From NCBI GenBank assembly GCA_903908245.1, contig CAIVRE010000006.1, forward strand, positions 21,951 to 85,950: DNA of 64,000 nt, read 5' to 3'. The notes under the pieces were generated by a model. That model was not told the DNA's origin and ran no database searches. It was given only the letters and a program-made list of their open reading frames with translations. Below, piece by piece: positions 52,048-64,000 of this stretch. The DNA comes from Candidatus Omnitrophota bacterium (GTDB taxonomy: Bacteria; Omnitrophota; Gorgyraeia; Zapsychrales; Fredricksoniimonadaceae). A program made the translations under genes and the position numbers. How positions within the stretch are numbered: position 1 is the stretch's first letter; each line of letters begins with the position of its first letter.

Positions 52048-52800
52048 TTACTTTTTCGGAGCCGCAGGCTTGGCCGCGCCAGCCGCAGGCTTCGCACCGG
52101 CCGCCGGTTTTGCCCCTGCCGCCGGTTTCGCCCCTGCCGCCGCTTCCGCCGCAGGATCCTTGGGCTTCTCTTTAATAACTTCAAGTGTCGGTGCCACCAC
52201 TTCCGCATCGGCTGCGGGAGCTTCCTCACGACTGGAATAGACCACCGCCACCACCACCGCGCCCGGATCCATCTTGGTCCGGACACCGGACGGAAGAGCA
52301 AGGTCGCTGACATGGATCGCGTGATGCGTGTCGAGATTAGTCACATCCACTTCAATATGTTGCGGGATATCTTTCGGTAAACAGATCACTTCCAGCTCGC
52401 GCAACCCGTGCTCAAGCGTGGCCCCGATCTTCTTAAGGCCGATCGCCTCGCCTTTGACCACGATCGCCACACGGAAGGCGATCTCTTTATCCATTGAAAT
52501 GCGCTGAAAATCAATGTGATCGACCGCATCACTGACCGGATTAAAATATGTTTCCTTCGCCAGCGCGATACAATCACTGACCTTTTTTTCGCCTGCCAGG
52601 ATCTGCACCTGGAAAAGAATACTTTCCCCGTGATGCTCGCGCATGATACGGTCAAAATCCTTGCGCATCAGCTTGACCGACAAGGGTTTTTCCGCCCCGC
52701 CGTACACCACGCCAGGGATATAACCCGCCTTGCGAAGGGTCTTCACTTCCCCGGAGCCTGCTTCATTCCTGACCTGTAAATCCAATTTGATCTGTTCCAT
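52048..52800 (-). CDS. rplY: 50S ribosomal protein L25 / general stress protein Ctc with a low-complexity C-terminal tail
   Basis: L25 beta-barrel N-terminus plus Ctc domain. C-terminal (AGAKPA)n repeats. Confidence 0.85.
   Translation of the reverse strand: MEQIKLDLQVRNEAGSGEVKTLRKAGYIPGVVYGGAEKPLSVKLMRKDFDRIMREHHGESILFQVQILAGEKKVSDCIALAKETYFNPVSDAVDHIDFQRISMDKEIAFRVAIVVKGEAIGLKKIGATLEHGLRELEVICLPKDIPQHIEVDVTNLDTHHAIHVSDLALPSGVRTKMDPGAVVVAVVYSSREEAPAADAEVVAPTLEVIKEKPKDPAAEAAAGAKPAAGAKPAAGAKPAAGAAKPAAPKK
52060..52150. repeat. Imperfect tandem 18-nt repeats encoding the (AGAKPA)n tail of Ctc
   Basis: GGCTTCGCACCGGCCGCC / GGTTTTGCCCCTGCCGCC / GGTTTCGCCCCTGCCGCC. Confidence 0.7.
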
Positions 52801-55298: not shown

Positions 55299-56885
55299 AT
55301 GCTTTTAAAAAATAAAGGGCAATCCGTTCTCGAATATATGCTGCTCGCCTCGATCATTATGGTCGGGATCATCATTGGCGGGCCTATATTATTAAAATCC
55401 GTCCAGGGCTATTTCCAGCTCACCGATGAAAGCGTACAGGACGCGACTTCCGAGATCATCCAGCAGGCCCCCGATGCCACGAATATCCCCAAGATCTGCG
55501 GATGTTCGAACGGCACCACCGCCCTGCCCAGCGCACTGAACATCGGCAGCTATCAGGCCGCCGGCTGGTCACAAGGCGAGTGCGGCGTAGGCAACTGCAG
55601 TGCCCTGCAAAGATACTTTTACCGCACCTGCTCTCCGATCAAATGCGCGGCGGAAGAAGCCTGCGTTCCCGACGGCACCTGCTGCTCTGCGCCAGAGCCT
55701 CTGAGCTGCGGGACACGCTTCTCGGCAGGTTCAGCCACTTTGAACTGTACCCAGGCTGGAAAGACCAAAACCACCCTGGATGCAAGATTCGGCGGCTCCT
55801 ATACCAACACCTGTGACCTGTTATCCGCCAACGGCTACGACTGCCTTGTCGGCCAACGATTATATGTCAGACAATGCGCCAATGCCGCCAACCCCAGCAC
55901 GAAAGACACGATCTATGCCTGCAAAGGCCCGGATGATGAGACAAAGCAAAATTGCCTGCCTACCTGCTGGCAGTATCCTTTCCCGGGATCAAAACCCTGC
56001 AACGGGCCCGCTACAGGGGACGCCGAAAAAGATGACTACATGGTCCGGGAGAATGCACTCCAGGACGCCAAGGCCACGGCCATCGCCCTGCGCACAGACC
56101 TGATCCCGGAAGTCATCTACCGTCAATCCGCCACCAACTCGGGCGATAACCCGCCCAACATCAATGAAGAACCGAAGGATATGGCCTATTACGCACGGGT
56201 AAGCGCGCACCTCGTCGAACCACCCCCTCATAACCCCTACAGGATCCTGACCAAGAACGCGGAAACATCCGATATCCTGAAGTTCAACTCTTACCGCGCT
56301 CATTATGTATATTTAAAAGCCAACCAATGCGCCGACGCGCGCTATTGCGAAAGGCGCTGTCCCGGCGGCTATGGGCCGAATCCGGAAGGCCTCAGGGGCA
56401 TGCGCGAGAATGAAAGCTGCGCACAGTTGGCCTGCCTGTACGGCTGGTGGCCGGAAATAGAACCCCTGCCTGTAGCCGCGGGCTCGCGAGACACAGCAAA
56501 AGCATCCCCGGCCAACCAGATATGCGACGCCCTTGATGAACCGAAAATATGCCTCCCCAATACAGATATTTGCGGCTATATCGCCGTATGCTCATCCCCG
56601 TCTGGATACAGTTACCGGACATCCGACACCAGCGGCAGCTTTGATCTGAAGAAACTCGCTGACTCTGCAGCCCCTTGCGATACCGGGTATCGCAAGATCT
56701 CCGACCTGCACAACAAGATAACATACTGTTATAAAGCGACCCCAAGCGCCAGCCCCATAGCGGCACTCCCCGCCGACTTCCATTGTGACGCCGGCAATAT
56801 CTTTGTTGAAAGCTTCGGCTATCCGGCAAATGCGGCCACCAAAGACAACACTCTCTTTTTTACGCTCCTCGGATGCGACAACTGA
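55299..56885 (+). CDS. Cysteine-rich (~40 Cys) 528-aa secreted protein with an Flp/type-IV-pilin-like class III signal peptide
   Basis: MLLKNKG|QSVLEYMLLASIIMVGIIIGG: a short basic leader ending in Gly, Glu at +5, Tyr at +6 and a hydrophobic helix, matching the prepilin peptidase motif G/xxxxEY. The remainder is a unique Cys-rich extracellular region. Confidence 0.7.
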   Translation: MLLKNKGQSVLEYMLLASIIMVGIIIGGPILLKSVQGYFQLTDESVQDATSEIIQQAPDATNIPKICGCSNGTTALPSALNIGSYQAAGWSQGECGVGNCSALQRYFYRTCSPIKCAAEEACVPDGTCCSAPEPLSCGTRFSAGSATLNCTQAGKTKTTLDARFGGSYTNTCDLLSANGYDCLVGQRLYVRQCANAANPSTKDTIYACKGPDDETKQNCLPTCWQYPFPGSKPCNGPATGDAEKDDYMVRENALQDAKATAIALRTDLIPEVIYRQSATNSGDNPPNINEEPKDMAYYARVSAHLVEPPPHNPYRILTKNAETSDILKFNSYRAHYVYLKANQCADARYCERRCPGGYGPNPEGLRGMRENESCAQLACLYGWWPEIEPLPVAAGSRDTAKASPANQICDALDEPKICLPNTDICGYIAVCSSPSGYSYRTSDTSGSFDLKKLADSAAPCDTGYRKISDLHNKITYCYKATPSASPIAALPADFHCDAGNIFVESFGYPANAATKDNTLFFTLLGCDN

Positions 56886-56910: not shown

Positions 56911-58131
56911 ATGGCAAAGAAACTCCGTATCCTTCTTCATTACACCCACAAACAAACTCTCGGCCACACCACCCGCACGATCTCGCTTGCGACATCTATT
57001 GTTGATCACCACGCAACAAAAACAAGCCTTCTGCTCCTGCAGGGTGGAGCGCTTCAACCCCTTATAGAACACCCCAAAGGGTACAGGCTCCTGAACATCC
57101 CCTTCCCGTTCGATACCCGGGACAGTTTTCGCTCCCGCTCAATACCGCAGCGAACAACCGAACGCGCCGCGTTCATCCTTAAAGCCGCGCAAGAATTCAC
57201 CCCCGGCGTCTTTATAACAGAATTCTTCCCTTTCGGCCGTTCAGCCTATATCCCGGAACTTCTTCCGGCGTTGCGTTATTTGCGGAAGACCGGCTGCAGG
57301 ATCATTGCCAGTATCGGCTATCCTCTCATCATCGACCTGATCCGCCTTCAGGACAGGCAATTCGCGGCGGTATATAAAGCCCTGCTGTCCTTTTACGATG
57401 CCTTCCTGATCCACACACCCGAACAACTCGAAACGCCCTATTTTCTAAGGTCCATCGCCTCAAAAGAGATCGCGGACCTTTACACCGCGACCCTTGGATC
57501 GATCAGAAAGAAAATGATCCATACCGGCTATATTTTCCCCCGGCGAATACTGACACCGACGAAGAACGACGGCCTTGAAAAACTCCCCCCCGCCCCGAAT
57601 ACAGTGATTGTCAGCCGCGGCGGCGGCGCTGTATATCCCAAACTCATTGTCAACGCGATCCAAGCTCAAAAACTCCTCGGGAAGAACTTCCGGATGATCA
57701 TCGCCTGCGGCCCATCCACATCCGAAAAAGAAATGTCCCTCTTTAAACAGGTCCTGAAAGAAAACAAAGGCAGCCCGATCCTTTTGACCAGCCACCTCTC
57801 CGACCTGGATGATCATCTGCGGACCTGCCAGGTCTCGATAAGCCTCTGCGGCTATAATACATCGGTACAACTGATGCGCCATGGCACTCCGTCGGTGATC
57901 GTGCCCTACAGTAACGGGCTCTCCCGGATGCCCACCAATGACCAGATCGCCCGTGCCGCCCTTCTTCAAGAGAAATTCGCAAGCACCGTCCTGTCTTACG
58001 ACACGCTGACCCCCCGGTCGCTCGCCCAGGCCATTCGTGCGCGGGCCGACCGGCCGCGGCCGGCCCCGGCGCCATTGTCCTGGTTCCAGGGAGCGCGAAC
58101 CTCTGCCAAGATCATCGTCGAGGAGGCCTAA
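56911..58131 (+). CDS. GT-B fold glycosyltransferase (GT28/MurG-like)
   Basis: N-terminus MAKKLRILLHYTHKQTLGHTTRT (degenerate GGTGGH loop) and a MurG-like C-terminal nucleotide-sugar-binding half. Listed ORF starts further upstream, overlapping the preceding gene. Confidence 0.6.
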   Translation: MAKKLRILLHYTHKQTLGHTTRTISLATSIVDHHATKTSLLLLQGGALQPLIEHPKGYRLLNIPFPFDTRDSFRSRSIPQRTTERAAFILKAAQEFTPGVFITEFFPFGRSAYIPELLPALRYLRKTGCRIIASIGYPLIIDLIRLQDRQFAAVYKALLSFYDAFLIHTPEQLETPYFLRSIASKEIADLYTATLGSIRKKMIHTGYIFPRRILTPTKNDGLEKLPPAPNTVIVSRGGGAVYPKLIVNAIQAQKLLGKNFRMIIACGPSTSEKEMSLFKQVLKENKGSPILLTSHLSDLDDHLRTCQVSISLCGYNTSVQLMRHGTPSVIVPYSNGLSRMPTNDQIARAALLQEKFASTVLSYDTLTPRSLAQAIRARADRPRPAPAPLSWFQGARTSAKIIVEEA

Positions 58132-58132
58132 A

Positions 58133-59176
58133 ATGGAGCATCAAGCCTTCACCGGAATGGACGCGCGCCGTTTTGACACAAGGGACTTCAATATCAACCG
58201 GCCCGAAGTTGAACGCTTATGCGCCATATTCAATACCGGCAGGCTGCTGGAGTGGATCCCCGAAAAAGGCCTGCGCCTGTCCCACTCGAACTTCACCGTT
58301 TACGCGAAGTGTTCCCGTGGACAATATATTTTTAAATTCCAGCCGGCCACGAATGAATGGTTCCGGCGCATTGAAAAGAACGTTCAAACAGAATGGCTCC
58401 TCAACCGCCTGCTGATATCCAAGACTATCGCGGTCCCGCCCATGTTCCGCGCGAACGACCGCCGGCCTTATGCCTTATCCGGTCAATATTGCACGACCTG
58501 CTATACCTATCTCGACGGTTACCCTGCCTACCAGAACAAGCTCGTCCCCAGGCAGGTCGCCAGGATCAATCGCGCCCTTTTCCTCCTGGATCAGGCCCTG
58601 GACACAGCGCCGGCTATCGTTAAATTGCTTAAAACAGAACCCCTCATAAAGAAATTGCGCCCGCTGACCGAAGCCGCTCCTGCATGCCCCCCCGCACAGG
58701 AAGCCCTCAAAGCTTTTAAAAGAACATATTCCGAAACCCCCCGGCTCTTTGTGGCACGGCCCGTCCATGCCAATCTCTCCCTGGCCAACATTTTCTTCTG
58801 CAATGGCCAGGCCTATATCCTGGACATCGGCCATATCCAGACAGACCAGGAATTATCCGGATTGGCGACATTGATCACCTCCTGCATTTTCCTGAGAAAA
58901 CCATCTTCGGTGATCCGCGGCCTTGTGCAAGGCTATTTCAAAGAACACCGGCTGGAGAAAGAAAAACTGGGCGTCTTGAATATCCTCGTTCAGCTTGATC
59001 TGGCCAAAGAATATATCAAGTTGAACACGCGGGGAGAAGAACGGGCCCGGCAGCTGCCGACCAACCGCCTGCAGAAAGAATATTCTTACCACCTTGGAAA
59101 ACGGATTGAAATGCTCAGGAACCTGCTTGAAAAGAAGAACGGCGGCCAAGAACGTCCGATAACAGGATTATTTTAA
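58133..59176 (+). CDS. Aminoglycoside-phosphotransferase-fold kinase-like protein with catalytic Asp replaced by Asn
   Basis: Perfect AGGAGG Shine-Dalgarno 7 nt upstream. VHANLSLANIFF aligns to HGDLHPGNLL (H-x-N instead of H-x-D). ILDIGH aligns to the IDxE/DFG-like metal site. Confidence 0.55.
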   Translation: MEHQAFTGMDARRFDTRDFNINRPEVERLCAIFNTGRLLEWIPEKGLRLSHSNFTVYAKCSRGQYIFKFQPATNEWFRRIEKNVQTEWLLNRLLISKTIAVPPMFRANDRRPYALSGQYCTTCYTYLDGYPAYQNKLVPRQVARINRALFLLDQALDTAPAIVKLLKTEPLIKKLRPLTEAAPACPPAQEALKAFKRTYSETPRLFVARPVHANLSLANIFFCNGQAYILDIGHIQTDQELSGLATLITSCIFLRKPSSVIRGLVQGYFKEHRLEKEKLGVLNILVQLDLAKEYIKLNTRGEERARQLPTNRLQKEYSYHLGKRIEMLRNLLEKKNGGQERPITGLF

Positions 59177-59849
59177 TTCCCCCTTTGTCACGCCAGCGGG
59201 AAATCCCCTTCAGAAAGAACTGCAATTCCCCCTCCAGCCCTTGCGCCGCGAACTCTTCATGATGAAGAAGGATCCCGGTCAATTGGCCCGGAACAACCGC
59301 CCGCACCAGATGCCGCAGCATATATCGGTGATCCATCTTCTTCCCCTGACCGTTGCGGGCGCCAAAAGATATTCCGGCGGGGATATCAAGGACTTTATCT
59401 CCGGGAGAGAACGCCTTCTTGCCGGCAGAAAAACCGGCGAACCTGCACTTTTTCACAAGGCCGAGCGTTGTCGCGTCATATCCATGGAACGGAGGAACAA
59501 AGACCGAAGTGAACATTTTTCCGAAAACCGACTTCATCACGGACATCCCCCTCTTAAGATCACGCCCCTGGCAAGCGGCGCAACGCGAAGGCCCGAACTC
59601 ATACTTCCGCTCTCCCGGGCGGGAATGATCCGCATGGCTCCAGCCATGCTGAACAATATCCAATAATCCAGGCGTCCGCGCTTTCTGGCGCTTTAACATA
59701 CCCGCCAGTCGGCTGTCCAGGCCATCAGGGATCACCGCGTACACCACGGGAAGATCCTTCTCCAGGAATAAACGAAAGAATTCCTTGAAATAACCGCCTG
59801 CAGCCTTTACATCATCATCCCGGATAAAAAGATACGCCGGCCTCATCAC
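59115..59849 (-). CDS. Divergent NodB-like polysaccharide/carbohydrate deacetylase
   Basis: FIRDDDV ... VQHGWSHADH motif pair as seen in divergent polysaccharide-deacetylase families. 244 aa. Last gene of the minus-strand operon. Its 3' end overlaps the kinase-like gene by 62 nt. Confidence 0.5.
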   Translation of the reverse strand: MMRPAYLFIRDDDVKAAGGYFKEFFRLFLEKDLPVVYAVIPDGLDSRLAGMLKRQKARTPGLLDIVQHGWSHADHSRPGERKYEFGPSRCAACQGRDLKRGMSVMKSVFGKMFTSVFVPPFHGYDATTLGLVKKCRFAGFSAGKKAFSPGDKVLDIPAGISFGARNGQGKKMDHRYMLRHLVRAVVPGQLTGILLHHEEFAAQGLEGELQFFLKGISRWRDKGGIKIILLSDVLGRRSSFQAGS

Positions 59850-59850
59850 G

Positions 59851-60594
59851 TCAACCTCCCCGCTTTCGGCAACAGTTCAACGCCAGCGCTCTGACACTCG
59901 CCGGGACCTGCAACTCGGGTTTGCCCACGCAGGGAAATAAAACGGATAGATCCGGCGACAATGAACGCAGCAACCGCTTGCCTTTCTTAAGCGGTGCCGG
60001 GATACGGACAGCAGCATCAAGGACCGCCTTCTCAAGGAAAGGGAATACGATTTCCCGGCCGGAATCTGCCGCGATGATCCCGTGATGACGTACCATCTCC
60101 CGCGCCTGGCTGCGCCGCCGGGCGGTTGACGGTCCCCGGGCCATCGCCTCTTCCCCCAGCCACTGATCACTGCCCATCCCTGCCCAGAAACGTTTGAACG
60201 AAGACGGAAGTTTCAGGAGCGCGGCATGCAAAAGAGGGATGTCATAATCGCGGCCCCTTCCTTTCAAAAGCTCCTCAACGCGTATCGCAGAAAGAATATA
60301 TTCTTTCAGGGAAACCCGGACCACCTGATGCCTGGCCTTAAGCAGACGGGCCGCCCGTTGAGCCTCAAGGACCGTACGCGGATTATACCTGTCGAAAGCC
60401 ACCGTGACCGCCGCAACGCCGGGGAAAACCTGCCTGGCCTGTTCATATAAGAAAATCGAATCAAAACCGCCGCTGAACATTACCGCCGACGGAATGCCTC
60501 CCGACCGGATGGCCACGGCCATCGCGGCACACAACTCGACACGGAATTGCTCCGTCCGAAGATTCTTTTCAGGATTAGCCGTTTTTCTTTTCAT
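59851..60594 (-). CDS. PP-loop ATP-pyrophosphatase, asparagine-synthetase-B-like C-terminal domain only (PseA/WbuX-type amidotransferase candidate)
   Basis: PP-loop MFSGGFDS. 247 aa with no glutaminase domain. Confidence 0.6.
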   Translation of the reverse strand: MKRKTANPEKNLRTEQFRVELCAAMAVAIRSGGIPSAVMFSGGFDSIFLYEQARQVFPGVAAVTVAFDRYNPRTVLEAQRAARLLKARHQVVRVSLKEYILSAIRVEELLKGRGRDYDIPLLHAALLKLPSSFKRFWAGMGSDQWLGEEAMARGPSTARRRSQAREMVRHHGIIAADSGREIVFPFLEKAVLDAAVRIPAPLKKGKRLLRSLSPDLSVLFPCVGKPELQVPASVRALALNCCRKRGG

Positions 60595-61577
60595 GCCAGA
60601 TAACGCAAATTAAATGGTTTCAAAAAACCGTGATAGGCAAAACACCCGGGGCAATCCCCCTTCTTGGCGGATCGGAACATTACGCCCCTTTGAAGATCCA
60701 GCCCGTCCGGAAGGCCTCCTTTAAGGTCAACACAGCCCACCGGCGGCATATACAGGCATGGATGAACATCGCCGCCGGAAGTGATGAACAAACTATTCTT
60801 CGGCGTAGCGCAAGCCGAGATCCCCTTCCGGCCAGAGTCAAGCAAATGCAGGACAGCCTCGGCCATCGCCCGGTCGATCCCCTCTGCCCCGCCATGGAGA
60901 ATATCCAATACCTGCGCGCGTACGCTGGAACGCATCAATGCCGTCAACGAAGACAACGCCTGAACTCCCGGCCCGCCGCTGCGATGATAATACGCCGCAA
61001 CCCCATACTCCATGATCTTGGGAGAGAATCGCGCGCCGAAACGACGGGCAAGCCGATACACCTCCCCAAGGGCATGATAATTAACACGGTTAATGGTGAA
61101 CTTCAACTCCAGCTTAACACTGTCCCGGCACTCGCCCGCCAGGAACTCCAGCGTCTTCATTGTCTTGCGGTACGCCCCCTTGCCCCTCAGGGCATCATGC
61201 GCCTGCTCATCCCCGTCCACACTCACCCCTACCTCGATACCGTTGAACATTCTTCCTTGAGACTTGAACAGTCTTTGAATACGCGCGGTACAAGCCCCAT
61301 TCGTGTAAACACCATATCCGGTCACAAGGCCGCGCGATCTCATCAGCGCCAGAAAACGCAGGACCCCCCCGATCCCGGGATGCAGGAAAGGCTCGCCGCC
61401 CGTGACCGATATGAACCGGACCTGATAATTCCGCAACAGGCTTTCGGTCAACCGGATAAAACGGGACGCTGATATCTCGCGCCTGGAGCGTTCCTTCCAT
61501 ATCGCGCAAGCCCGGCAGCGCAGTTGACAGCGGTTGGTCACCTCAACGGTCACATCCCTTAATACAGCCTTGGTCAT
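60591..61577 (-). CDS. Radical SAM enzyme with C-terminal SPASM/twitch-like cysteine cluster
   Basis: CQLRCRAC (CX3CX2C) near the N-terminus. C-terminal cysteines CATPKNSLFITSGGDVHPC...CVDLKGG...CPGC. 4-nt overlaps on both sides. Confidence 0.75.
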   Translation of the reverse strand: MTKAVLRDVTVEVTNRCQLRCRACAIWKERSRREISASRFIRLTESLLRNYQVRFISVTGGEPFLHPGIGGVLRFLALMRSRGLVTGYGVYTNGACTARIQRLFKSQGRMFNGIEVGVSVDGDEQAHDALRGKGAYRKTMKTLEFLAGECRDSVKLELKFTINRVNYHALGEVYRLARRFGARFSPKIMEYGVAAYYHRSGGPGVQALSSLTALMRSSVRAQVLDILHGGAEGIDRAMAEAVLHLLDSGRKGISACATPKNSLFITSGGDVHPCLYMPPVGCVDLKGGLPDGLDLQRGVMFRSAKKGDCPGCFAYHGFLKPFNLRYLA

Positions 61578-62725
61578 TGCCTCACCAACCCTTTCAAGCC
61601 TCTGCCGGACGGGCCAGATTGAACACGGGCCAATACCGCATGCACAGACCTGTTAAGCTCCGCATGCCCGCAGTACCGGCACTCCCTCCAGCGGTCTTTC
61701 CTGATATCAATACACCGCATCGCGTCCTGCCGGATCTTCTGAAATTTGACTGACCCGAACCAGATATCCTTGAAAGATCCTTTATAAATATTCCCCGCGA
61801 TACAAACCCCGATATTGTCGCAGGGAGCGACGACCCTGCCCCGCTCGTCGATCAGGGCATTGAACCACCCGGTATAACAATGCACCCGCTCCTGCGGCAC
61901 CGCGTGATAATAAAAAAGCCTGTCGTTATTCCATTTTGTCGGCGCCATTGCCGCCCGGTCCTTCACAAACCCCTTTCGGGAAATGATATCGTGGATCTGC
62001 GACAAATTATTGATCGCCCGATGCCGGCCCTTTCCGGCCCTGGCAATGATCCCCAGCAAGGGTTTCATTGACCCCGGCGAAAACACCAGGGATTTCATCT
62101 CGACCGTAGCCTCAAAAAGGCGAAAAGCCACCCGGTCGACCTGAAAACGATCCGTCAGATCAAGATACGCCTCGATCTCCCTGTAATTCACTTCATTGAT
62201 AATGAACGTAAGCACCAGCGACGGCTTGCCGTACTTTGTACGCATGGCCGATAACAGGCGCAAATTGTCAATGACATCCCCGAACCCGTCTTTGCCATGA
62301 ATACGGCGGTAGGAAGCGGCCGTAGTGGCGGAAAGGTTGACATTAAGCCGGTCGGCCAACCGGAGGTAGTCGAGATGCTCCCGGCCATAATCCAGATGCG
62401 TATACGCCGCCAGCGACATCCCCAGGCGATGGACCAGGCGAAAAGCCTCGGCAACGCGTGGATACAGGGCCACCTCCCCTCCCTCCAGATTGATCTCCTC
62501 AACACCCATCCCGGCACAATCATGGATCAACCTTTTTAAAACATCAAAATCAATATCCTTGCGCTTTTCACGCCAGGAGACCATCGGAGAAAAATACCAG
62601 CAGAACCTGCACCGGCGGTCGCAGGCATTGGTCAAATGGACATTGACCGAACGCGGCCCGATCAGCGGCTTTCCCGAAAGGATCCCCTTGAACCTCAAAC
62701 GCTCGGATGCGCGGTCCCAACTCAC
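61574..62725 (-). CDS. Radical SAM enzyme with C-terminal SPASM/twitch-like cysteine cluster (paralogous partner)
   Basis: CDRRCRFC (CX3CX2C). C-terminal HCYTGW...APCDNIGVC...CRYCGH. Confidence 0.75.
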   Translation of the reverse strand: MSWDRASERLRFKGILSGKPLIGPRSVNVHLTNACDRRCRFCWYFSPMVSWREKRKDIDFDVLKRLIHDCAGMGVEEINLEGGEVALYPRVAEAFRLVHRLGMSLAAYTHLDYGREHLDYLRLADRLNVNLSATTAASYRRIHGKDGFGDVIDNLRLLSAMRTKYGKPSLVLTFIINEVNYREIEAYLDLTDRFQVDRVAFRLFEATVEMKSLVFSPGSMKPLLGIIARAGKGRHRAINNLSQIHDIISRKGFVKDRAAMAPTKWNNDRLFYYHAVPQERVHCYTGWFNALIDERGRVVAPCDNIGVCIAGNIYKGSFKDIWFGSVKFQKIRQDAMRCIDIRKDRWRECRYCGHAELNRSVHAVLARVQSGPSGRGLKGLVRQ

Positions 62726-63834
62726 TTCGACCTCCGTCCCAGAAAAGCTTTACAGACAGCCACGACCTCCCGCGCCTTATCCAGGCCCATGAAAGAATAC
62801 AGGGGAAGATGCAAGCCGCAGGCGAAATACTCTTCGCTCACAGGGTACTTCCTGCGGCATGACTTTTGATACGCTCCCATCGCATGCAACGGCGTATACG
62901 GGCGCTGCGCAAGGATACCGTGCAATGAAAGAAATGCGAACAGCTCATCCCTGACAGAGAAATACACCAGGAAATTCTGCGGCACGATCCCGGCCTTTTC
63001 CCTGTCCTTAAAAATACGCACCCCTTCCATGGATCCCAGCGCCCCTGCATAGAAATCGCTGACCTGTTTGCGCGAATCAATGATCTTTTTTAAATGCGCG
63101 AATTTAACCCGTAAAGCGACCAGGTCCATCAAAGGCAAAGGCGCGAAACGCTGCCCCAGCCGCAAAAGCTCCCCGTCATCTTTCCAATCCTCCATCCAGC
63201 CGCGGATCCGTTCATATTTTTTGTCATTAAAAACAACCATCCCGCCCCCGCCCCCGCAGGAGGAAAGCGGCTTGTAATAAGAGAACGAAAAAGCCCCCAT
63301 ATCCCCGTAACTCCCCAGCATCCGGCCCTTCCATCGTGAACTTTCAGCCTGGCAAACATCCTCCAGAAGCACGATCCCCCGGTCCCGGCAAAGGCGCACC
63401 AGACGGTCCAGGTCACACGGCCGGCCGAACATATGCGCCGCGACCACCGCTTTCGTACGGCGCGTGATCATTCGCTCGACCTCAACAGGATCCATGGTCA
63501 GGTCTTGCGCACGGGCATCCACAGGGACCGGCTTCGCCCCGCAATAGGAAACAGCCAAAGGGACTGCCTGATAGGTCAAGTCCGGCACAATGACCTCGTC
63601 CCCCTTCTTGACGCCATTGGCCAAAAGCATCATCTTCAATGCGTCGCTTCCGGAATTAACCGCCACCGCGTGTTTAACCCCGATATACGCCGCGAACCGG
63701 TCCTCAAAATCACGGATTAAAGGCTTGATATCATTAAGCCCGTCAAGGCCCTTCACACACCGTTCCAATTCGGACGCATACTCACATGCAAGCGCGCGCT
63801 CGACAAGTGCACATTCATAGCGGACTTTTATCAT
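62722..63834 (-). CDS. DegT/DnrJ/EryC1/StrS-family PLP-dependent sugar aminotransferase
   Basis: 370 aa with DegT-family conserved segments (AVNSGSDAL, GDEVIVP, FSFSYYKP with PLP-Lys). Confidence 0.8.
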   Translation of the reverse strand: MIKVRYECALVERALACEYASELERCVKGLDGLNDIKPLIRDFEDRFAAYIGVKHAVAVNSGSDALKMMLLANGVKKGDEVIVPDLTYQAVPLAVSYCGAKPVPVDARAQDLTMDPVEVERMITRRTKAVVAAHMFGRPCDLDRLVRLCRDRGIVLLEDVCQAESSRWKGRMLGSYGDMGAFSFSYYKPLSSCGGGGGMVVFNDKKYERIRGWMEDWKDDGELLRLGQRFAPLPLMDLVALRVKFAHLKKIIDSRKQVSDFYAGALGSMEGVRIFKDREKAGIVPQNFLVYFSVRDELFAFLSLHGILAQRPYTPLHAMGAYQKSCRRKYPVSEEYFACGLHLPLYSFMGLDKAREVVAVCKAFLGRRSK

Positions 63835-64000
63835 GCTATTCTCCCCATAAACCTTCGGTCAACCGCCTCGATGCTTTCGCATAATCCTGTATAAGCCCCC
63901 ACTCGCGCGGAGTACCGGCCGCCTCCGGAAGAACGGACAGCCAGGCCCGCATTAAAATTGCTCACGGCCCGGTAACTCGGCATTCCGTCCCTCTCGCCCA
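63831..64000 (-). CDS. C-terminal end of an upstream operon gene (hypothetical), ATGA-overlapped with the DegT gene
   Basis: Open frame to the window edge ending ...AVDRRFMGRIA* with its TGA overlapping the downstream ATG (ATGA), typical translational coupling. Confidence 0.5.
   Translation of the reverse strand, partial: GERDGMPSYRAVSNFNAGLAVRSSGGGRYSARVGAYTGLCESIEAVDRRFMGRIA

What the first reader, a model, noticed from the sequence alone, without database searches (positions are those of the whole stretch)
60591..62725. Tandem paralogous radical-SAM enzymes with SPASM/twitch C-terminal cysteine clusters, translationally coupled to a DegT aminotransferase and a PP-loop amidotransferase
Both proteins carry CX3CX2C (CQLRCRAC; CDRRCRFC) plus 5-7 additional C-terminal cysteines, typical of auxiliary [4Fe-4S] clusters. 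Known SPASM/twitch enzymes act as peptide-crosslinking maturases, as the sugar dehydrogenase BtrN, or as cofactor-maturation enzymes (AhbD, anSME). A pair of them next to sugar-amine enzymes is unusual. I considered hopanoid HpnH/HpnJ and 2-deoxystreptamine BtrN/BtrS analogies but could not support either from sequence alone.
Basis: partly seen in the sequence, partly recalled or inferred. Interest (0 to 1): 0.65.

Follow-up and report, generated by a model that had tools for sequence, protein, structure and literature searches.

The report
Radical-SAM-rich sugar-tailoring gene cluster of Omnitrophota
The two genes are real but only distantly related radical-SAM enzymes, each probably carrying one extra iron-sulfur cluster, and they belong to a larger, uncharacterised seven-radical-SAM gene cluster conserved in Omnitrophota bacteria that most likely builds an unusual amino-sugar-containing molecule.

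Summary
Window 61574-62725 and 60591-61577 (minus strand) encode two radical-SAM proteins with CX3CX2C motifs and C-terminal cysteines. They are linked by 4-nt start/stop overlaps to a DegT aminotransferase and a PP-loop protein.

Three corrections:
- They are not close paralogs. They share about 26% identity over the radical-SAM core only. The true paralogs of protein A lie elsewhere in the cluster.
- The conserved cysteines fit a one-cluster "twitch" domain (C-X17/18-C…C-X2-C), not the seven-Cys SPASM motif. A's four align with the cysteines in BtrN's C-terminal domain.
- The pair is a fragment of a cluster running past the window end. In the parent contig it holds 7 radical-SAM genes, DegT, two PP-loop proteins, a PaaK/CapK-like ligase, an ApbA-like reductase, a DUF2334 deacetylase-like protein, a MurG-like glycosyltransferase and an APH-like protein.

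No curated family claims either protein. Both families were found only in Omnitrophota MAGs. Eight of nine sampled contexts of distant relatives of A lie among sugar, glycan or aminotransferase genes, three directly beside DegT. No precursor peptide or recognition domain was found.

Best reading: carbohydrate-tailoring radical-SAM enzymes, A possibly a BtrN-like alcohol oxidase feeding DegT. The product is unknown.

The parts
63831..64000 (-). 3' end (last 55 codons plus stop) of a further radical-SAM gene (340 aa in the parent contig). Its stop overlaps the DegT start (ATGA).
   Evidence: The full gene is L001 6725-7747. It is a paralog of another cluster gene (33% identity, E 1e-48).
62722..63834 (-). 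DegT/DnrJ/EryC1-family PLP sugar aminotransferase, 370 aa
   Evidence: Pfam PF01041 E 5.5e-74. Best solved relatives are DesV, QdtB, a scyllo-inositol transaminase and perosamine synthase. The SFSYYK lysine motif is read from the translation. Relatives share 57-64% identity.
61574..62725 (-). rSAM-A: radical-SAM enzyme with a BtrN-type twitch C-terminal domain, 383 aa
62600..62623 (-). rSAM-A CX3CX2C motif (C35, C39, C42) for the SAM-binding [4Fe-4S] cluster
   Evidence: Read. Invariant in 20 homologs.
61670..61879 (-). rSAM-A auxiliary-cluster region. Invariant C283, C302, C349 and C352, plus subfamily-specific C308.
   Evidence: for conservation. One search shows these four aligned on the four cysteines of BtrN's C-terminal domain.
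60591..61577 (-). rSAM-B: radical-SAM enzyme with four conserved C-terminal cysteines (twitch-like), 328 aa
61506..61529 (-). rSAM-B CX3CX2C motif (C17, C21, C24)
   Evidence: Read. Invariant in 22 homologs.
60642..60812 (-). rSAM-B auxiliary-cluster region. Invariant C256, C274, C309 and C312 (C-X17-C-X34-C-X2-C).
59851..60594 (-). PP-loop ATP-pyrophosphatase of the asparagine-synthase type (synthetase domain only), 247 aa, SGGFDS motif
   Evidence: Pfam Asn_synthase E 2.7e-7. In relatives L006, L008 and L017 the counterpart ORF is about 480-500 aa, and the one scanned (L006, 501 aa) matches asparagine synthase. The motif is conserved.
59115..59849 (-). DUF2334 / polysaccharide-deacetylase-like protein, 243-244 aa, with FIRDDD and QHGWSHADH motifs
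58133..59176 (+). APH-fold protein, 347 aa. It is convergent with the operon and overlaps it. Asn sits at the third position of the H-x-N-x-x-x-x-N stretch, where kinases of this fold have the catalytic Asp (from memory).
   Evidence: Pfam APH E 3.7e-4, below the cutoff. Gene call. Motif alignment of 15 homologs.
56911..58131 (+). MurG-like GT-B glycosyltransferase (Glyco_tran_28_C), 406 aa. With DegT, it is the best-conserved partner gene.
55299..56885 (+). Cys-rich (31 Cys) 528-aa exported protein with a Flp/type-IV-pilin-like N-terminus (KG/QSVLEY). It sits at the cluster edge and may be associated with it.

Best explanation
The two genes encode distinct, uncharacterised radical-SAM enzymes. 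Each binds the SAM-cleaving [4Fe-4S] cluster through CX3CX2C. Each probably also binds one auxiliary [4Fe-4S] cluster in a twitch-type C-terminal domain.

They are two of seven radical-SAM genes in one conserved Omnitrophota gene cluster. The cluster also encodes:
- a DegT sugar aminotransferase
- a MurG-like glycosyltransferase
- a DUF2334 deacetylase-like enzyme
- two PP-loop proteins, one of the asparagine-synthase type and one resembling N-acetyl-sugar amidotransferases
- a PaaK/CapK-like adenylating ligase
- an ApbA-like reductase
- an APH-fold protein

Inferred mechanism: the cluster tailors a carbohydrate, either a hexosamine-type sugar or a cyclitol. One possible order is glycosyl transfer and de-N-acetylation, radical oxidation and other C-H chemistry on the ring, transamination, and then amide formation. 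rSAM-A, or its paralog in the cluster, would abstract a ring hydrogen with the 5'-deoxyadenosyl radical. It would pass the second electron to the auxiliary cluster, as BtrN does. This converts a secondary alcohol to the ketone that DegT then aminates. rSAM-B performs a second, different radical step and may work with the DUF2334 enzyme.

The favoured destination of the product is the cell envelope.

What is shown: gene content, motifs, conservation and genomic associations. What is inferred: substrate, reaction order and product.
For: Family status:
- Both proteins are radical-SAM members, and no curated family reaches its cutoff for either.
- The named members of both families come only from Omnitrophota MAGs.

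Auxiliary-cluster domain:
- The invariant cysteines give C-X18-C…C-X2-C in A and C-X17-C…C-X2-C in B.
- A's C-terminal domain finds only BtrN in the PDB, with cysteine on cysteine at four positions.

Cluster:
- The cluster extends past the window and has 7 radical-SAM genes.
- A, B, DegT and GT28 co-occur in 15 of the 16 other genome loci that hold a close A homolog on more than 3 kb of sequence. DUF2334, PP-loop and APH-like genes are present in most. The same association is seen in the deep-branching locus L034.
- One extra cluster gene matches N-acetyl-sugar amidotransferase (5.7e-19), and the ligase is PaaK-like.
- Some loci add an ArnC-like GT2 and a large membrane protein with weak Agl23/STT3-type matches.
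- No NAD-dependent sugar dehydratase or dehydrogenase family recurs in the cluster.

Distant relatives of A:
- They lie in glycan loci with Wzm/Wzt exporters, GT2/GT4 genes, NeuB, cytidylyltransferases and heptose-nucleotide genes.
- One is fused to a cytidylyltransferase.
- Three sit directly beside DegT.

Fold:
- Structure matches include the sugar-acting DesII and BlsE. BlsE gives the best TM-scores for both proteins.

Against a peptide substrate:
- No PqqD/RRE domain was found in any cluster protein.
- No conserved small ORF was found.
Against: - No substrate or product is known for any member, so everything beyond domain content rests on gene association.
- Fold searches rank the peptide maturases SuiB, SkfB and CteB as high as the sugar enzymes. 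BtrN is not among the top 50 hits for either protein.
- B's best sequence match in the PDB is the sactisynthase SkfB, at 4.5e-20 over the core.
- The BtrN match is weak: E 5e-4 with the whole profile and 0.02 with the domain alone.
- The DegT-adjacent distant relatives are closer to A's paralog than to A itself.
- The cluster lacks a recognisable cyclase, a nonulosonate synthase and a nucleotidyltransferase of its own.
- The APH-like protein has Asn where the catalytic Asp is expected.
- A distant B relative lies near an HxsD-like gene, which belongs to a peptide system.
Confidence: 0.55

Rival explanations
1. The cluster makes a soluble small molecule and not an envelope glycan. Candidates are an aminocyclitol or aminoglycoside-like compound, or a glucosamine-based metabolite built by glycosyl transfer, deacetylation and ligation (the logic of paromamine, mycothiol or bacillithiol). 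A and B would be tailoring enzymes of that pathway.
For: - The enzyme types mirror those of the butirosin core pathway as I remember it: a DegT aminotransferase, a twitch radical-SAM, a glycosyltransferase, a deacetylase and an APH-fold protein.
- Two ATP-dependent ligase-type enzymes are present.
- The window's own cluster contains no flippase, polymerase or exporter.
Against: - No 2-deoxy-inosose synthase or inositol-phosphate synthase is present in the cluster.
- The cluster is conserved at 40-65% identity across many Omnitrophota lineages, which looks more like core physiology than a variable secondary metabolite.
- Some loci carry an ArnC-like GT2 and a large membrane protein with weak Agl23/STT3-type matches. 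That pairing is typical of periplasmic glycosyl transfer.
- Distant relatives sit in exporter-linked polysaccharide loci.
Confidence: 0.2
2. A and B are peptide or protein maturases. They would install thioether or carbon-carbon cross-links in an unrecognised peptide, or in the neighbouring Cys-rich pilin-like protein.
For: - The best curated and solved matches include peptide maturases: MftC, ScmE/F and SkfB at 4.5e-20, plus SuiB and CteB.
- The two paralogous upstream radical-SAM genes resemble PapB most (1e-23 to 1e-26).
- A 31-Cys exported protein lies at the cluster edge in several lineages.
- An HxsD-like gene lies near a distant B relative.
Against: - All these scores are far below the family cutoffs.
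- No RRE/PqqD domain, peptidase or conserved small ORF was found.
- Only one auxiliary cluster is indicated, whereas the solved maturases SuiB, CteB and PqqE carry the two-cluster SPASM domain (SkfB is a twitch exception).
- The Cys-rich protein is peripheral, was detected in only 7 of the 17 longer genome loci (L001 included), and is conserved mainly in its N-terminal part.
- The other conserved partners are sugar-type enzymes.
Confidence: 0.12
3. The cluster modifies a membrane lipid, for example a glycolipid, a hopanoid-type polyol or a membrane-spanning lipid.
For: - The divergent B12-binding radical-SAM gene resembles lipid-type B12 radical-SAM proteins and HpnJ (about 1e-31 to 1e-33).
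- There are weak hits to tetraether synthase.
- Some Omnitrophota MAGs carry membrane-spanning-lipid synthase homologs (PMC11868695).
- Glycosyl transfer, deacetylation and a radical-SAM step form the logic of hopanoid cyclitol-ether synthesis, as I remember it.
Against: - Scores are far below the cutoffs, and the B12 gene is present in only a minority of loci.
- Neither A nor B hits HpnH or HpnJ.
- No squalene-hopene cyclase and no fatty-acid, isoprenoid or ether-lipid genes are seen in the cluster.
- The contexts of distant relatives are glycan loci, not lipid loci.
Confidence: 0.08
4. A and B are housekeeping cofactor-maturation enzymes, for example in heme (AhbD/NirJ), molybdopterin (MoaA), PQQ or tungsten-enzyme maturation.
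For: There are weak matches to the tungsten-cofactor maturase model (60.9 bits), MoaA, AhbD and NirJ.
Against: - All are 5- to 20-fold below the curated cutoffs.
- No cofactor-pathway genes are present in the conserved neighbourhood.
- The named members of both families come only from Omnitrophota MAGs.
Confidence: 0.03

Closest known systems
BtrN (2-deoxy-scyllo-inosamine dehydrogenase of butirosin biosynthesis; twitch radical-SAM, PDB 4M7T)
   Same: - It has one C-terminal auxiliary-cluster domain. Cysteines in the spacing C-X17-C…C-X2-C align one-to-one with A's C283, C302, C349 and C352.
- It works together with a DegT-family aminotransferase on a carbohydrate-derived ring (reaction and twitch definition from PMC9012708).
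- It lacks a peptide-recognition domain.
   Different: - The match is confined to the C-terminal domain and is weak (E 5e-4 to 0.02).
- BtrN is about 250 aa, against 383 and 328 aa here.
- It is not among the top 50 fold matches.
- No 2-deoxy-inosose synthase is present in the cluster.
- A has an extra invariant Cys (C308) and an N-terminal conserved helix.
DesII and BlsE (radical-SAM enzymes acting on a nucleotide sugar and a nucleoside sugar; PDB 8HZV, 7VOB)
   Same: - DesII is the top Foldseek match to A (7.5e-14).
- BlsE gives the best TM-scores for both proteins (0.63/0.73 for A and 0.70/0.70 for B).
- DesII works downstream of the DegT-family enzyme DesI (from memory).
   Different: - Sequence identity is only 14-17%.
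- The sequence E-values are 0.004 (DesII against A), 0.005 (BlsE against A) and 3e-6 (BlsE against B).
- Sizes differ.
- Reaction type cannot be transferred at this distance.
SkfB, PqqE, MftC, SuiB and CteB (radical-SAM peptide maturases with twitch or SPASM domains)
   Same: - They share the core fold, with sequence similarity over the radical-SAM half. Examples are SkfB 4.5e-20 to B, PqqE 1e-6 to A and the MftC model 1e-16 to B.
- SkfB also has a single auxiliary cluster.
   Different: - The scores are far below the family cutoffs.
- No RRE domain and no precursor gene are present.
- The seven-Cys SPASM motif is absent.
- The gene neighbourhood consists of sugar-type enzymes.
Arn (lipid A aminoarabinose) and Pse/Leg (nonulosonic acid) pathways
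   Same: The accessory gene types are shared: a DegT aminotransferase (its best curated hits are LegC, PseC and ArnB-type models), a deacetylase-fold enzyme, an ArnC-like GT2 and a large membrane protein in some loci, and a Glyco_tran_28_C protein. A distant relative of A sits in a NeuB / cytidylyltransferase / Glyco_tran_28_C locus.
   Different: - This cluster has no NeuB, cytidylyltransferase, formyltransferase or SDR dehydratase.
- None of those known pathways uses radical-SAM enzymes (from memory).

Membership tests
Radical SAM superfamily (PF04055) | CX3CX2C motif for the SAM-binding [4Fe-4S] cluster, with a profile match above the cutoff | tested here: met
   A scores 60.3 bits and B 50.2 bits against a cutoff of 29.5. 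The motif cysteines are invariant in 20 and 22 homologs. GGE is present in both.
SPASM domain (PF13186; two auxiliary clusters) | Seven-cysteine motif that includes CX2CX5CX3C and binds two [4Fe-4S] clusters | tested here: not met
   A passes the Pfam cutoff (28.4 against 21.5 bits) but has only five conserved C-terminal Cys and no CX2CX5CX3C. B is below the cutoff (17.4 bits, first 22 profile positions only) and has four conserved Cys. No general SPASM-domain model was listed when the C-terminal domains were scanned alone.
Twitch domain (one auxiliary cluster, BtrN type) | A truncated SPASM domain with one set of cluster-ligating cysteines | tested here: met
   This applies to A. C283, C302, C349 and C352 align on the four cysteines of BtrN's C-terminal domain, and BtrN is the only PDB hit of that domain. 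The definition is from PMC9012708. Cluster binding itself is not testable here.
Twitch domain (one auxiliary cluster, BtrN type), applied to rSAM-B | The same cysteine pattern and domain homology | tested here: inconclusive
   The invariant pattern C256-X17-C274-X34-C309-X2-C312 fits. The C-terminal domain alone has no significant PDB or NCBIfam match.
BtrN / 2-deoxystreptamine pathway | Orthology to BtrN, plus a 2-deoxy-scyllo-inosose synthase and a BtrS-type aminotransferase in the same cluster | tested here: not met
   Only the C-terminal domain matches, and weakly. No sugar-phosphate cyclase is present in any locus. A DegT enzyme is present.
AhbD / AhbC / NirJ (alternative heme and heme d1) | Score above the curated equivalog cutoffs (500-650 bits) | tested here: not met
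   Scores are 25.8-52.3 bits.
Anaerobic sulfatase maturase (anSME) | A TIGR03942 match and two SPASM clusters | tested here: not met
   The model is not among the 25 best matches listed for A or B. PDB sequence E is 0.002 for B. The fold match at about 1e-8 ranks below many others.
RiPP maturases (PqqE, MftC, SkfB, PapB, sactisynthases) | A family-level score, an RRE/PqqD recognition domain or partner, and a precursor peptide gene | tested here: not met
   Scores are 31-61 bits against cutoffs of 265-850. No PqqD/RRE match was found in any cluster protein. No conserved small ORF was found in 20 loci.
Hopanoid HpnH / HpnJ | A match to the HpnH or HpnJ equivalog models, with hopanoid genes nearby | tested here: not met
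   A and B give no such hit. Only the separate B12-binding gene hits HpnJ, at 107.9 bits against a cutoff of 577.6. No hopanoid genes are present in the cluster.
MoaA / tungsten-cofactor maturase | Score above the cutoffs (284 and 380 bits) | tested here: not met
   A scores 46.6 and 60.9 bits. B scores 36.4 and 48.1 bits.
Prokaryotic viperin (defence) | A family-level match and a defence context | tested here: not met
   NCBIfam gives 40.1 bits against a cutoff of 180. The PADLOC pVip hits of 35-44 bits cover only the radical-SAM core. The other cluster proteins give no PADLOC hit.

The most novel reading that the evidence does not exclude
A large, entirely uncharacterised clade of one-auxiliary-cluster radical-SAM enzymes carries out anaerobic C-H chemistry on sugars. 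The clade comprises 228 clusters (50% identity) at E<=1e-30 and 3152 at E<=1e-10. The chemistry would include alcohol oxidation feeding DegT aminotransferases, so these enzymes would take the place of NAD-dependent dehydratases and dehydrogenases.

In Omnitrophota seven such radical-SAM steps would be combined to build a previously unseen, heavily modified amino-sugar or cyclitol component of the cell envelope, possibly displayed on a Cys-rich pilin-like protein.

The same enzyme logic would recur as 1300-1900-aa multi-radical-SAM fusion proteins, and as an array of at least 12 consecutive radical-SAM genes on a contig of a candidate-phylum archaeon (Aenigmatarchaeota).
Probability: 0.3. Interest if true: 0.75.

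Novelty: new variant of a known kind. Interest (0 to 1): 0.55.

Why it matters
Radical-SAM chemistry on carbohydrates is known from only a handful of antibiotic pathways, such as BtrN, DesII and BlsE.

If this reading is right, such chemistry is used widely by uncultured anaerobes to build surface glycans or related molecules. Omnitrophota, a phylum of very small and possibly host-dependent cells, would devote a conserved seven-radical-SAM cluster to one product.

That would give enzymologists new reaction types to look for. It would also give microbiologists a candidate lineage-specific envelope structure.

The practical value for annotation is immediate. These genes should not be called peptide maturases, MoaA/PqqE-family enzymes or SPASM proteins by default.

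Tried and rejected
- **Curated families.** I scanned Pfam and NCBIfam for all cluster proteins. No family cutoff is reached by either radical-SAM protein. I rejected heme, MoaA, PqqE, mycofactocin, anSME, viperin and hopanoid assignments.
- **RiPP hypothesis.** I found no RRE domain. A systematic search for conserved small ORFs in 20 loci gave only opposite-strand shadows of real genes.
- **Defence-system hypothesis.** PADLOC gave only generic viperin-core hits.
- **Literature.** Searches on Omnitrophota plus radical SAM, radical SAM plus polysaccharide or O-antigen, nonulosonic acid, and sugar aminotransferase found no description of this cluster or clade. The library does not cover most subscription journals.
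- **Glycosyltransferase.** A profile search for it reached only MurG-like and generic GT-B enzymes at E 0.01-0.04, so neither acceptor nor donor could be inferred.
- **Promoters and terminators.** The scan found nothing beyond chance.

Full report
**1. What is at the coordinates**

On the minus strand the window carries an unbroken run of genes with overlapping stops and starts:
- the 3' end of a radical-SAM gene that runs off the window (64000..63831)
- a DegT aminotransferase (63834..62722)
- rSAM-A (62725..61574, 383 aa)
- rSAM-B (61577..60591, 328 aa)
- a PP-loop protein (60594..59851)
- a DUF2334/deacetylase-like protein (59849..59115)

The junctions DegT/A (GTGA), A/B (ATGA), B/PP-loop (ATGA) and upstream-gene/DegT (ATGA) are 4-nt overlaps.

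Both radical-SAM proteins carry the quoted CX3CX2C motifs and a GGE motif. Both match Pfam Radical_SAM above its cutoff.

The genes are real. Homologs share 42-66% (A) and 38-60% (B) identity with E-values down to 1e-169.

**2. Are they tandem paralogs?**

Only in the loosest sense.
- A and B align over the radical-SAM core alone: 26% identity over 182 residues, E 1e-7.
- The profile-profile comparison covers 170 columns at 25% identity, and the C-terminal halves do not align.
- Within the full cluster, A's real paralogs are two other genes, of 335 and 331 aa. A against the 335-aa protein gives 27.5% over 356 residues, E 2e-27.
- The two genes upstream of DegT (340 and 341 aa) are paralogs of each other (33%, E 1e-48).
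- B has no close paralog in the cluster.

**3. SPASM or twitch?**

In 20 homologs of A the invariant non-motif cysteines are C70, C283, C302, C308, C349 and C352. In 22 homologs of B they are C256, C274, C309 and C312 only.

Neither protein has the CX2CX5CX3C core of the seven-Cys SPASM motif. The pattern C-X17/18-C…C-X2-C is that of a twitch domain, which is a truncated SPASM domain binding one auxiliary cluster (definition from PMC9012708).

For A:
- The whole-family profile hits BtrN's C-terminal domain at E 5e-4.
- A profile of the C-terminal domain alone hits nothing in the PDB except BtrN (E 0.02).
- In that alignment C283, C302, C349 and C352 each sit on a BtrN cysteine. From memory, those four are the auxiliary-cluster ligands of BtrN.
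- In the wider clade the same four positions stay conserved while C308 does not.
- A passes Pfam's SPASM cutoff.

For B:
- It has the same spacing, but its C-terminal domain has no significant match on its own.
- It does not pass Pfam's SPASM cutoff.

**4. Known families**

No NCBIfam model comes near its cutoff. The best is 60.9 bits for A (tungsten-cofactor maturase model, cutoff 380) and 60.8 bits for B (mycofactocin maturase, cutoff 265).

AhbD, NirJ, MoaA, PqqE, SkfB, HxsC, PapB and viperin all score 18-61 bits against cutoffs of 170-850.

**5. Structure**

The AlphaFold2 models are confident: A has pLDDT 83 and pTM 0.85, and B has pLDDT 92 and pTM 0.91.

Foldseek against the PDB returns the general radical-SAM/SPASM-twitch neighbourhood.
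- For A: DesII (7.5e-14), SuiB, SkfB, BlsE (best TM 0.63/0.73) and viperins.
- For B: SkfB (1.2e-14), BlsE (TM 0.70/0.70), CteB, SuiB and viperins.

This confirms the fold but does not separate sugar substrates from peptide substrates. BtrN is not in the top 50 for either protein.

**6. The pair is a fragment of a larger cluster**

The window is part of a 229-kb metagenomic scaffold (L001). Beyond the window end, the same operon continues upstream with:
- a PP-loop protein resembling N-acetyl-sugar amidotransferases (TIGR03573, 5.7e-19)
- an ApbA/ketopantoate-reductase-like enzyme
- a PaaK-like adenylating ligase
- three more radical-SAM genes

Two further radical-SAM genes are transcribed divergently, one of them B12-binding.

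Downstream on the other strand lie an APH-fold protein, a MurG-like GT-B glycosyltransferase and a Cys-rich exported protein.

That makes seven radical-SAM genes in about 16 kb.

**7. Conservation**

A pattern scan of one genome per species returned 21 loci. All are from Omnitrophota MAGs, although some are labelled 'Planctomycetales'.

Mapping the cluster proteins onto them shows the following.
- A, B, DegT and the glycosyltransferase co-occur in 15 of the 16 loci that hold a close A homolog on more than 3 kb of sequence.
- DUF2334, PP-loop, APH-like, the ligase and the 340/341-aa radical-SAM genes are present in most.
- The commonest order is ligase - 341 - 340 - DegT - (335) - B - <GT28 - DUF2334 - A - (335-like) - PP-loop - <APH-like. 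In most genomes A and B are therefore not neighbours.
- Direct A-B adjacency is particular to the window's lineage.

A deep-branching homolog (39% identity to B) again sits with GT28, DegT, DUF2334, APH and several radical-SAM genes, in scrambled order.

Some loci add another radical-SAM family, an ArnC-like polyprenyl-phosphate glycosyltransferase and a large membrane protein with weak Agl23/STT3-type matches.

In L006, L008 and L017 the PP-loop counterpart is a roughly 480-500-aa ORF. The one scanned, from L006, matches asparagine synthase. This supports an amidotransferase role.

**8. The wider clade**

An exhaustive profile search with the A family found 228 representatives at E<=1e-30 and 3152 at E<=1e-10. 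Many are 900-1950-aa fusions of two to four radical-SAM/SPASM modules with a B12-binding radical-SAM module. One of these comes from Calescamantes.

Nine genomic contexts of distant relatives could be read:

| Locus | Context |
|---|---|
| L025/26 | GT2 and GT4 genes with Wzm/Wzt export genes |
| L027/28 | GT4, GT2, PMT_2, carbamoyltransferase, CapK |
| L029 | Fusion to a cytidylyltransferase, followed by DegT |
| L031 | Directly beside DegT, among glycosyltransferases and methyltransferases |
| L032 | Directly beside DegT, in a NeuB / cytidylyltransferase / Glyco_tran_28_C locus |
| L035 | Several radical-SAM genes with DegT, an ABC transporter and a prepilin peptidase |
| L036 | GT2, sulfotransferase, methyltransferases |
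| L037 | Heptose-nucleotide genes and a triple-GT2 protein |
| L030 | At least 12 consecutive radical-SAM genes in an Aenigmatarchaeota contig (uninformative) |

The cysteine spacing C-X17-C…C-X2/3-C is kept in all six relatives examined.

A distant relative of B (33% identity) directly follows a DUF2334 gene on a contig that looks archaeal.

**9. Peptide substrate?**

- No cluster protein has a PqqD/RRE match.
- The genes are packed without room for a precursor gene.
- A search for conserved ORFs of 20-110 aa across 20 loci found only opposite-strand shadows of real genes.
- The Cys-rich protein (31 Cys) has a Flp/type-IV-pilin-like N-terminus (KG/QSVLEY). Homologs recur at the cluster edge in several lineages, but it is peripheral and conserved mainly in its N-terminal part.

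**10. Interpretation**

What is shown: two distinct twitch-type radical-SAM enzymes of uncharacterised families lie inside a conserved, Omnitrophota-specific cluster, and the non-radical-SAM members of that cluster are all carbohydrate-type enzymes.

What is inferred: the substrate is a sugar or cyclitol.

No NAD-dependent sugar dehydratase or dehydrogenase recurs in the cluster. A DegT enzyme needs a keto substrate. The simplest proposal is therefore that A, or its 335-aa paralog, acts like BtrN. It would oxidise a ring alcohol to a ketone by hydrogen abstraction and electron transfer to the auxiliary cluster, and DegT would then aminate that ketone.

B would catalyse a different radical step, possibly coupled to the DUF2334 enzyme.

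Possible roles for the remaining genes:
- The glycosyltransferase and the deacetylase may form the common pair of HexNAc transfer followed by de-N-acetylation.
- The PaaK-like ligase, the ApbA-like reductase and the two PP-loop proteins may build amide or amidine decorations.

I put about 0.55 on the general carbohydrate-tailoring reading and roughly half of that on the specific BtrN-like step. Rivals are a soluble aminocyclitol or glucosamine-based metabolite (0.2), peptide or protein maturation (0.12), lipid modification (0.08) and cofactor maturation (0.03).

**11. Novelty**

I found no description of this cluster or of the A or B families in the searchable literature. That library is incomplete.

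The enzyme class (twitch radical-SAM acting with a sugar aminotransferase) is known, so this is a new variant and not a new kind. The density of radical-SAM genes, the restriction to one phylum and the size of the uncharacterised clade make it worth experimental follow-up.

Noticed in passing
window 55299-56885 (+); homologs in L004, L010, L015, L017, L018, L021: A 528-aa protein with 31 cysteines begins MLLKNKGQSVLEYMLLASIIMVG. That matches the Flp/type-IV-pilin-like class III signal (G/xxxxEY), yet the protein is far larger than ordinary Flp pilins. Homologous N-terminal regions recur at the edge of the same cluster in other Omnitrophota. A distant radical-SAM/DegT locus (L035) carries a prepilin peptidase.
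   Followed up: partly
window 58133-59176 (+): In the APH-fold protein the catalytic-loop motif HxDxxxxN reads H-x-N-x-x-L-[ST/A]-N in 14 of 15 homologs. The usual catalytic Asp is therefore replaced by Asn across the family. It may be a pseudokinase or use a different mechanism.
   Followed up: partly
L001 1-7747 (parent contig, beyond window position 64000): The operon continues outside the window. It holds three more radical-SAM genes, a PaaK-like ligase, an ApbA-like reductase and a PP-loop protein like N-acetyl-sugar amidotransferases. Two radical-SAM genes are transcribed divergently, one of them B12-binding.
   Followed up: yes
proteins P0199, P0200, P0201, P0208, P0210 (relatives of rSAM-A): These are single polypeptides of 1300-1930 aa that fuse two to four radical-SAM/SPASM modules, often with a B12-binding radical-SAM module. 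One is from Calescamantes, and one shows a weak carbohydrate-binding-module hit.
   Followed up: partly
L030 1-12500 (Aenigmatarchaeota contig): At least twelve consecutive radical-SAM/SPASM genes lie in a row, with almost nothing else between them.
   Followed up: no
L033 1599-3213: A distant relative of rSAM-B (33% identity) directly follows and overlaps a DUF2334 gene on a contig that looks archaeal (it carries RNase P p30). An HxsD-like gene lies nearby. The DUF2334/B pairing may be older than the Omnitrophota cluster.
   Followed up: no
window 59115-59176: The DUF2334 gene (minus strand) and the APH-like gene (plus strand) converge and overlap by 62 nt.
   Followed up: no
window 52048-52800 (-): The 250-aa ORF between the Pth and PRPP-synthetase genes is probably ribosomal protein L25/Ctc (identified by eye only). 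It ends in a low-complexity tail of (P)AAGAK repeats.
   Followed up: no
window 1-64000: GC skew is negative in every 2-kb block of the 64 kb, mostly between -0.10 and -0.20. Most long ORFs lie on the minus strand.
   Followed up: no
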